From positions 13,082,001-13,146,000 of the forward strand of contig NW_024704752.1 of the NCBI RefSeq assembly GCF_018977255.1: 64,000 bases of DNA, written 5' to 3'. The DNA comes from Callorhinchus milii. Lineage: Eukaryota. Shown piece after piece: positions 16,073-16,821 of the stretch. Each line of letters begins with the position of its first letter. Within the stretch, counting starts at the first letter, position 1. The notes under the pieces are model-generated. The model saw only the letters and a list, made by a program, of their open reading frames with translations, was not told the origin of the DNA and did no database searches. Both the position numbers and the translations under genes were made by a program.

Positions 16073-16821
16073 TGAGAAAAGTTTAACATAGAAGATGGAG
16101 CACATTAAATAAGGGACAGTTGACAGGTAGGATAGCCCTAGCTGACAAGCAGCAGACAGTTTACCAAATGATGCTTTCAATAGCACGCTATCCAATGATG
16201 GTGGTAAGAGTCTTGATGTTAGCATGTGACTATTTATATCTTTAATGTTTCATGGAGAAATTTACCTAAATTAAAACCAGGATTCCACGTATGCAACCTA
16301 TTCCAGGCAGAGGGCGAAACCTTGGGCAAGTTTCCTTACTCCACACAGAGCCTAATAATAATCCCTCCAAAAACAAAACAATAATAAATTGGTCATTTTC
16401 AATCTACGACTGTTTGTGGGACATTGCTGTGCGCAATTGGCTGCCACATTCGCCCACAAATATACAGTCAATTCACTTTACAGTGTATTCTGTGAAGCAC
16501 TCTGGGACGTCCTCCCGACGTGAAAAGCGCTATATCAAATGCAAGGATTATTATTATTATATACATGGAAATTACCGACTGGAACAGAATCCACATTCTC
16601 TCCTTGCCTAATTCTGGAGAATATTAGGTAGGTTGGCAAAAGCCAAGGGGACCCCAGAGTGTGGGTTGGGGTACTGTTGGAGTTCGACCAGTTAAAATTG
16701 GATAGCGTGCCACTGAAAGCATCATCTGGCAAACTGTCTGCTGCTTGTCTAGCTAGGGCTATCCTACCTGTCAACTGTCCCTTATCTAATGTGTTCCATA
16801 TTCTACGTTAAACTTTTCTCA
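16073..16821. repeat. Long inverted repeat, arms 16073-16196 and 16697-16821
   Basis: Arms align as reverse complements with 8 substitutions and 1 indel over ~124 bp. A SINE copy lies in the spacer. Confidence 0.95.
16300..16560 (+). mobile_element. 5'-truncated SINE, same family, in the spacer of the inverted repeat
   Basis: TTCCAGGCAGAGGGCGAAACC...AAATGCAAGG(ATT)n. Confidence 0.9.

What the first reader, a model, noticed from the sequence alone, without database searches (positions are those of the whole stretch)
16073..16821. 124-bp inverted repeat with strand-specific G-U bias between converging ATG4B and DTYMK 3' ends
Seen: the arms differ by 8 substitutions and 1 indel, with a 35-bp perfect core. 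Six of the 8 are A (left) against C (right) on the plus strand, which are G-U wobble pairs in minus-strand (DTYMK-sense) RNA; only one of the six is in a CpG context. A minus-strand AATAAA lies 185 nt beyond the left arm (15883-15888), so a long DTYMK 3' UTR would contain the hairpin and the short isoform (AATAAA at 17096) would not. The arms match no other repeat in the window and I see no target-site duplication. Established: G-U-biased divergence is typical of selected RNA helices, and long 3' UTR duplexes are ADAR, Staufen or Dicer substrates. Inference: a dsRNA module switched by alternative polyadenylation. In ATG4B read-through RNA the same sites would be A-C mismatches, which ADAR prefers.
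Basis: partly seen in the sequence, partly recalled or inferred. Interest (0 to 1): 0.7.

Follow-up and report, generated by a model that had tools for sequence, protein, structure and literature searches.

The report
Edited hairpin in ATG4B read-through RNA
A short stretch of DNA sits as two mirror-image copies just behind the autophagy gene ATG4B, likely through a recent local duplication, and RNA from the ATG4B strand carries a cluster of A-to-G changes confined to the two copies, so it likely folds into a long hairpin edited by ADAR: an ordinary case of a well-known process, on the opposite strand from the one first proposed.

Summary
The inverted repeat is real and exactly as described. 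Its interpretation moves to the other strand. RNA contigs carry A>G changes on the PLUS (ATG4B-sense) strand: 11 of 28 A in the right arm against 0 of 330 A in the rest of the same contig (p 8e-14); three sites recur in a second run of the same study; DNA contigs of two other runs read A. No arm-specific T>C (DTYMK-sense editing) was listed. The right arm is the resident copy: 60% of it belongs to an old dispersed retroposon that continues into the spacer, where a young SINE interrupts it. The left arm is a likely local inverted duplicate, not a transposon end. The G-U bias is not significant by strand (6 of 7 transitions, p 0.125), a nearby SINE pair shows 7 of 7, and at least two differences vary between samples. 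Best reading: a young hairpin in minor ATG4B read-through RNA, hyper-edited by ADAR, with no shown function. Repeat hyper-editing is known across animals, and the scan noted similar hairpins on other DNA. New member of a known kind.

The parts
16073..16196 (+). Left arm: likely derived inverted copy of 16697-16821 (part old retroposon, part single-copy DNA)
   Evidence: the repeat match stops at the arm edge here (16121-16195) but runs on beside the right arm; the non-repeat part is found only at the two arms
16697..16821 (+). Right arm: resident copy, carries the main A>G cluster in RNA
16704..16789 (+). Cluster of 11 A>G changes in an RNA contig (16704, 16716, 16717, 16718, 16731, 16732, 16755, 16761, 16766, 16784, 16789), all opposite U in the plus-strand duplex
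   Evidence: run X1; 16755, 16761, 16766 again in X3; A in DNA contigs of X12/X13; pairing partners and enrichment
16154..16168 (+). A>G changes in a left-arm RNA contig (16154, 16167, 16168; 16163 is ambiguous because G also occurs there in DNA)
16263..16773 (-). 5'-truncated remnant of an old dispersed retroposon-like repeat (about 600 bp when full, fixed A-rich 3' end, no terminal inverted repeats), split by the young SINE
16300..16560 (+). Young 5'-truncated SINE in the spacer, 89-97% identical to four to five other copies in the window; ATT-repeat tail; longer copies have a tRNA-like head
   Evidence: family name not determined
14197..15775 (+). ATG4B stop codon and main 3' UTR; RNA contigs of X1, X3 and X5 stop at 15775, after AATAAA 15745-15750 (a second AATAAA at 15816)
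   Evidence: weak hint only, because a 2-nt indel variant also lies at 15775
17096..17790 (-). DTYMK stop (17788-17790) and 3' UTR down to AATAAA 17096-17101
   Evidence: a spliced DTYMK contig of X6 reaches 17129 and a contig of X7 ends at 17046
15883..15888 (-). AATAAA proposed for a long DTYMK isoform; followed by A/G-rich, not U-rich, sequence; use not shown

Best explanation
The two arms are a likely young local inverted duplication, and ATG4B-sense RNA that covers them carries a cluster of A-to-G changes confined to the arms, most likely because minor read-through RNA from ATG4B folds into a 124-bp hairpin that ADAR hyper-edits. Steps: (1, shown) the right arm lies in an old retroposon remnant plus 50 bp of single-copy DNA; (2, inferred) one template-switch or fold-back repair event copied it in reverse about 240-500 bp away; (3, partly shown) the arms then diverged by ordinary point mutation on both sides, some still variable; (4, weak hint) most ATG4B RNA ends near 15775-15870 and lacks the hairpin; (5, shown in contigs) some plus-strand RNA covers the arms and has A>G only there; (6, inferred) that RNA comes from ATG4B read-through or nascent RNA and the editor is ADAR; (7, inferred) editing is routine surveillance of self dsRNA with no selected regulatory role.
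For: X1 contig 16534-17691 has 13 other letters: 11 A>G, all inside the right arm, 11 of 28 A against 0 of 330 A outside (Fisher p 8e-14). X1 has spliced GT..AG joints, so it holds RNA. Three sites recur in X3. DNA contigs X12 and X13 (16648-16780) and X12 (16756-17250) have 0 other letters. The G letters are not those of the repeat family: at most 1 of the 11 sites is G in any of 33 other copies. The edited contig keeps the right-arm letters at 6 of the 8 substitution sites and the indel, so it is not the left arm's minus strand laid on the wrong arm. 12 of 15 changed A have U or A on the 5' side (p 0.034; 11 of 14, p 0.059 without 16163), the known ADAR preference (PMC9989829, passage). Adenosine-deaminase (PF02137) exons occur at five loci of this genome. 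Plus-strand arm pairing probability averages 0.93. Polarity: the family has the right-arm letter at 3 of the 4 testable sites and the left-arm letter at 1. 16163 G and 16800 C occur in DNA contigs, 16786 T in an RNA contig.
Against: Only assembled contigs were available: no raw reads, no strand-specific library, no editing level, and no DNA from the same animals as the RNA. Editing was seen in 2 runs of one study; 5 RNA runs of organism A from 3 studies were laid. No listed piece bridges the ATG4B 3' UTR and both arms, so the source of the plus-strand RNA is inferred. X1 also holds intronic contigs, so the RNA may be nascent. One X12 DNA contig has G at 16755 (7.7 of 293.5 depth, among repeat-family contigs). 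34 and 10 rows of differences were hidden, among them 2 T>C places of X1. 6 of 7 transitions fall in one of four arm-by-letter classes (simulated p about 0.008, a post hoc test; 1 of 5 pairs, this one), which drift explains only as a somewhat unlikely draw. No related genome was available to test conservation or the pre-duplication state.
Confidence: 0.78

Rival explanations
1. One reading: a selected G-U-rich helix in a long DTYMK 3' UTR that ends at the 15883 signal and is switched by alternative polyadenylation.
For: Minus-strand duplex is more stable (-219 vs -199 kcal/mol); the hexamer exists; 6 of 7 transitions are G-U on that strand.
Against: RNA-specific changes listed in the arms are plus-strand A>G; all 5 T>C places of X3 and all 5 of X7 are shown and come from SINE or repeat-family contigs, also in DNA. 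Bias p 0.125; a multi-copy repeat pair nearby has 7 of 7. Two of the six G-U sites vary between samples (16163, 16786). The hexamer lacks a U-rich downstream element.
Confidence: 0.06
2. The hairpin is a functional element of a long ATG4B isoform: read-through past the proximal poly(A) signals adds an ADAR substrate that lowers export, stability or translation, and A-C mismatches were favoured to tune it.
For: All six A-C mismatches put the A in one arm; 16167 (and perhaps 16163) is changed opposite C; four proximal AATAAA signals lie upstream of the hairpin; A-C mismatches are favoured targets (PMC526178, passages).
Against: Arms are only 7% diverged and differences vary between samples; 6 such inverted pairs in 464 kb, so they are common; 13 of 15 changed A are opposite U, not C; no mature long isoform shown.
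Confidence: 0.1
3. Editing comes from an intermolecular duplex between converging ATG4B and DTYMK transcripts, or from another plus-strand transcript rather than ATG4B.
For: The genes converge and RNA contigs cover the DNA between them; sense-antisense pairing is a known source of edited dsRNA in some lineages (PMC9989829, passages).
Against: A>G is confined to the arms (0 of 330 A outside), and no T>C cluster is listed, which a sense-antisense duplex would give on both strands across the overlap.
Confidence: 0.04
4. The A/G differences between the arms are old RNA edits written back into DNA, or the arms are terminal repeats of a DNA transposon.
For: All 7 transitions are A/G in the aligned frame; earlier scan notes on other genomes proposed such scars.
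Against: Family letters show G>A in the left copy at 3 of 4 testable sites, the wrong direction for editing. The full arm occurs only twice, the family has an A-rich 3' end, variable 5' ends and no TIRs, and the remnant crosses the arm boundary.
Confidence: 0.02

Closest known systems
ADAR hyper-editing of repeat-derived inverted pairs across animals (Porath et al. 2017, PMC5625713; section 5 and passages read)
   Same: Clustered A>G in a nearly perfect duplex formed by a reverse copy within 2 kb. Its Table 1 lists 200,171 unique hyper-edited sites in elephant shark brain, 81% in repeats.
   Different: Here the partner arm is a single local duplicate that includes non-repeat DNA, not a second insertion of a repeat family. 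Whether these sites are in that paper's lists was not checked (supplements not read).
Inverted Alu pairs in human mRNA (Athanasiadis et al. 2004, PMC526178; passages read)
   Same: Intramolecular fold-back, A>G clusters at A-U pairs and A-C mismatches.
   Different: Not Alu, shorter (124 bp), and likely beyond the main poly(A) site.
Long dsRNA purged from canonical mRNA (Barak et al. 2020, PMC7006430; abstract read)
   Same: A long, nearly perfect duplex outside the main mRNA, weakly expressed and heavily edited, is what that paper describes.
   Different: Selection against inclusion was not measured here; the word 'shark' does not occur in its main text.
Local template switching that creates inverted repeats and hairpins (PMC5453318, passages; PMC10710096, abstract and opening)
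   Same: One event gives a reverse copy of nearby sequence with full pairing.
   Different: The pre-event sequence is unknown, so switch points cannot be tested; the 500-nt loop is unlike a miRNA precursor.

Membership tests
ADAR hyper-edited inverted-repeat dsRNA | Long, nearly perfect reverse-complement partner within about 2 kb | tested here: met
   124 bp, 93%, 500 nt apart
ADAR hyper-edited inverted-repeat dsRNA | Cluster of A>G in RNA confined to the duplex | tested here: met
   11 of 28 vs 0 of 330; 3 sites recur in X3
ADAR hyper-edited inverted-repeat dsRNA | Changes absent from genomic DNA | tested here: met
   all 11 right-arm sites read A in DNA contigs of X12 and/or X13; not the same animals as the RNA
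ADAR hyper-edited inverted-repeat dsRNA | ADAR 5' neighbour preference (U, A over C, G) | tested here: inconclusive
   right direction, p 0.034 or 0.059 depending on one site
ADAR hyper-edited inverted-repeat dsRNA | Inosine chemistry and dependence on ADAR | not testable with these tools
   deaminase-domain genes present; no direct assay
Selected G-U-rich RNA helix in the DTYMK 3' UTR | G-U bias beyond chance | tested here: not met
   6 of 7, p 0.125; 2 of 5 pairs with 5 or more transitions, this one included, reach that level
Selected G-U-rich RNA helix in the DTYMK 3' UTR | Minus-strand RNA spanning both arms | tested here: inconclusive
   no arm-specific T>C listed; contigs cannot show absence and 2 T>C places of X1 were hidden
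Selected G-U-rich RNA helix in the DTYMK 3' UTR | Covariation across species | not testable with these tools
   no related genome is held; run X11 of organism B matched only the SINE
Non-autonomous DNA transposon (MITE) with TIRs | Multiple copies of the TIR pair | tested here: not met
   full arm found only at the two arms; searches score only the best candidates
Non-autonomous DNA transposon (MITE) with TIRs | Target-site duplication and arms as element ends | tested here: not met
   flanks differ; the old repeat runs through the inner end of the right arm
miRNA or endo-siRNA hairpin | Small-RNA products from the arms | not testable with these tools
   no small-RNA reads; no Rfam family at gathering score, best E 0.79

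The most novel reading that the evidence does not exclude
A newborn regulatory switch caught while still variable: a single inverted duplication just past the ATG4B poly(A) signals made a read-through-gated ADAR substrate, and selection is pushing its mismatches toward A-C on the transcribed strand (all A in one arm) to tune editing and disarm the duplex, with natural alleles of different pairing strength available to test it.
Probability: 0.07. Interest if true: 0.6.

Novelty: new member of a known kind. Interest (0 to 1): 0.3.

Why it matters
It is a clean, located example of hyper-editing in a hairpin made by a local duplication rather than by two repeat insertions, and it shows that G-U counts in DNA can point to the wrong strand: the RNA evidence is on the A-C strand. 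Because some arm differences vary between samples, the locus could test how duplex quality sets editing. As biology it is expected: hyper-editing of such duplexes is widespread in animals and 6 comparable inverted pairs lie in 464 kb around it.

Tried and rejected
No listed run is on record as RNA ('no RNA holder listed'); X1, X5 and X6 were taken as RNA because of spliced joints. Runs X5, X6 and X7 (two other studies) gave little or no contig cover of the arms and no A>G rows there; this is no evidence either way. Run X11 (organism B) matched only the SINE, so it gave no orthologue. Rfam: nothing at gathering score. Local mutation asymmetry as the cause of the bias: 13 SINE copies in the window show no strand skew (C>T 21, G>A 23, A>G 23, T>C 28). 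Chimeric assembly from the repeat family or from the other arm's minus strand: rejected. TIR/MITE and edit-scar readings: rejected. Twin-priming by the spacer SINE: considered and dropped, since the duplicated piece lies at the target site downstream of the SINE (reasoning, no call). Literature searches with no paper on this locus by listing: 5 papers; 1; 7. Scan look-up near this place: nothing.

Full report
Observation. The repeat is as described: arms 16073-16196 and 16697-16821, 8 substitutions, 1 indel, 35-bp perfect core. Seven substitutions are transitions; six are A-C and one is G-U in plus-strand RNA, the reverse in minus-strand RNA. Both strands fold far better than 20 shuffles (z about -26). 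Pfam confirms an ATG4 protease on +, thymidylate kinase on - and an ING gene beyond (6 of 6 stretches matched, two below the curated cut-off). The names ATG4B, DTYMK and ING5 rest on recalled gene order and C-terminal sequence.

Anatomy. The arm search found 7 matches: the two arms and 5 partial ones (arm 49-124, 77-82%). The region 16560-16900 gave 40 scored matches of 2162 candidates, 38 of them elsewhere and all limited to query 1-215. In 33 fetched copies the family is about 600 bp, has variable 5' ends, a fixed A-rich 3' end and no terminal inverted repeats, so it looks like a non-LTR retroposon. A profile of 31 copies matches 16773-16560 on the minus strand, extends to 16263 when the SINE is left out, and matches the left arm only at 16121-16195. 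The remaining 50 bp of the arm are found only at the two arms. So the right arm is resident and the left arm is a reverse copy that spans a repeat boundary. A young SINE (16300-16560, up to 96.6% identical to other copies in the window) split the old repeat; longer copies have a tRNA-like head. A table passage of PMC3747384 lists a tRNA-derived SINE for elephant shark; I did not test identity with it. Local template switching makes such repeats (PMC5453318, passages; PMC10710096, abstract and opening); this origin is inferred, as no pre-duplication allele was seen.

The G-U bias. By strand class 6 of 7 has p 0.125, by binomial and by simulation under three mutation models. A finer, post hoc class test (A always in the left arm) gives about 0.008. 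In 464 kb (the window and 40 tiles of 10 kb; pairs across tile borders missed) there are 6 inverted pairs of at least 80 bp, 85% identity and 2 kb distance; of the 5 with at least 5 transitions, 2 reach p 0.125 or less (this one and a multi-copy repeat pair with 7 of 7) and 1, this one, reaches the finer skew. Family letters polarise 4 sites: G>A in the left arm at 16163, 16167, 16182 (family G in 24, 30, 31 of 33) and a right-arm change at 16713 (family A in 30 of 33). This is the wrong direction for edits written back into DNA, a lead taken from two scan notes. G at 16163 is seen in DNA contigs of X12 and X13, C at 16800 in X13 DNA and X1 RNA, T at 16786 in X1 RNA; each restores pairing. These look like alleles of a young duplication.

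RNA evidence. Fifteen runs were listed and 8 were laid: X1, X5, X6, X11 and X3, X7, X12, X13. All are contigs. X1, X5 and X6 show spliced joints of both genes; X12 and X13 are genome-sized and taken as DNA. One X1 contig (16534-17691) has 13 other letters: 11 A>G between 16704 and 16789, plus the two allele-like changes. That is 11 of 28 A in the arm and 0 of 330 outside (p 8e-14). X3, of the same study, repeats 16755, 16761 and 16766; two further differences of its contig are not listed. A second X1 contig (about 16118-16213, from its end distances) has A>G at 16154, 16163, 16167, 16168. DNA contigs read A at all 11 right-arm sites; one low-share X12 contig has G at 16755. The G letters are not family letters. 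Because the minus strand of one arm reads like the plus strand of the other, I checked phase: the edited contig keeps right-arm letters at 16711, 16713, 16726, 16730, 16794, 16806 and the indel and runs into right-arm flanks, so the changes sit on plus-strand RNA. Neighbour preference points the ADAR way (PMC9989829 passage). No arm-specific T>C is listed: all T>C places of X3 and X7 are shown and belong to repeat contigs; 2 of 6 in X1 were hidden. Deaminase-domain exons are present at five loci.

Transcript ends. Contigs of X1, X3 and X5 (two studies) stop at 15775, 30 nt after AATAAA 15745, which has a U-rich downstream tract, while DNA contigs go on; but a 2-nt indel variant lies at 15775 and X7 runs to 15868, so this is a weak hint that the main ATG4B end precedes the hairpin. 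DTYMK-side contigs end at 17703, 17129 and 17046. No piece bridges ATG4B exons and the arms. X1 also holds intronic contigs, so the edited RNA may be nascent.

Mechanism. Shown: resident right arm, two-copy full arm, plus-strand A>G cluster confined to the arms in one study, absent from other samples' DNA. Inferred: origin by template switch, ATG4B read-through as the source, ADAR as the editor, no selected function. Confidence 0.78. A functional ATG4B switch (0.10), the DTYMK G-U helix (0.06), a sense-antisense duplex (0.04) and edit scars or TIRs (0.02) are the rivals.

Known systems. It works like, and meets the testable features of, hyper-edited inverted-repeat dsRNA (PMC5625713, section 5 and passages: 200,171 unique sites in elephant shark brain; PMC526178, passages; PMC7006430, abstract). 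Searches listed no paper on this locus; supplements of PMC5625713 were not read and may list these sites. A scan note on another genome describes a fold-back in a 3' extension (not tested). Verdict: real, new member of a known kind, interest 0.3.

Noticed in passing
window 37440-37693 and 38603-38860: Inverted pair of young SINE copies, 259 bp, 94% identical, 910 nt apart: a longer potential ADAR substrate than the finding itself.
   Followed up: partly
L064:3782-4203 (G000:C11, about 12,935,800): Another two-copy local inverted repeat, 97 bp, 93%, 231 nt apart, with no other match in the 464 kb sampled.
   Followed up: partly
L076:4799-6294: Inverted pair of a multi-copy repeat in which all 7 transitions are A-C on the plus strand.
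   Followed up: no
window 16697-16773: Both arms share 5 G>A changes (minus-strand sense) against the family majority, more than in the adjacent spacer part (1), so they predate the duplication.
   Followed up: no
window 3085-3261 and 3607-3745: A second copy of the old retroposon, also split by an insertion.
   Followed up: no
window 17703-17720: In X5 the spliced DTYMK contig ends at 17703, close behind the stop and with no canonical hexamer, while X6 and X7 reach 17129 and 17046: DTYMK may have two 3' ends on its own side of the hairpin.
   Followed up: no
window 16065-16071 and 16206-16212: A 7-bp inverted match flanks the left arm (seen); probably chance, but could mark a switch point.
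   Followed up: no
window 1206-1585 and 46234-46984: Tandem minisatellite arrays.
   Followed up: no
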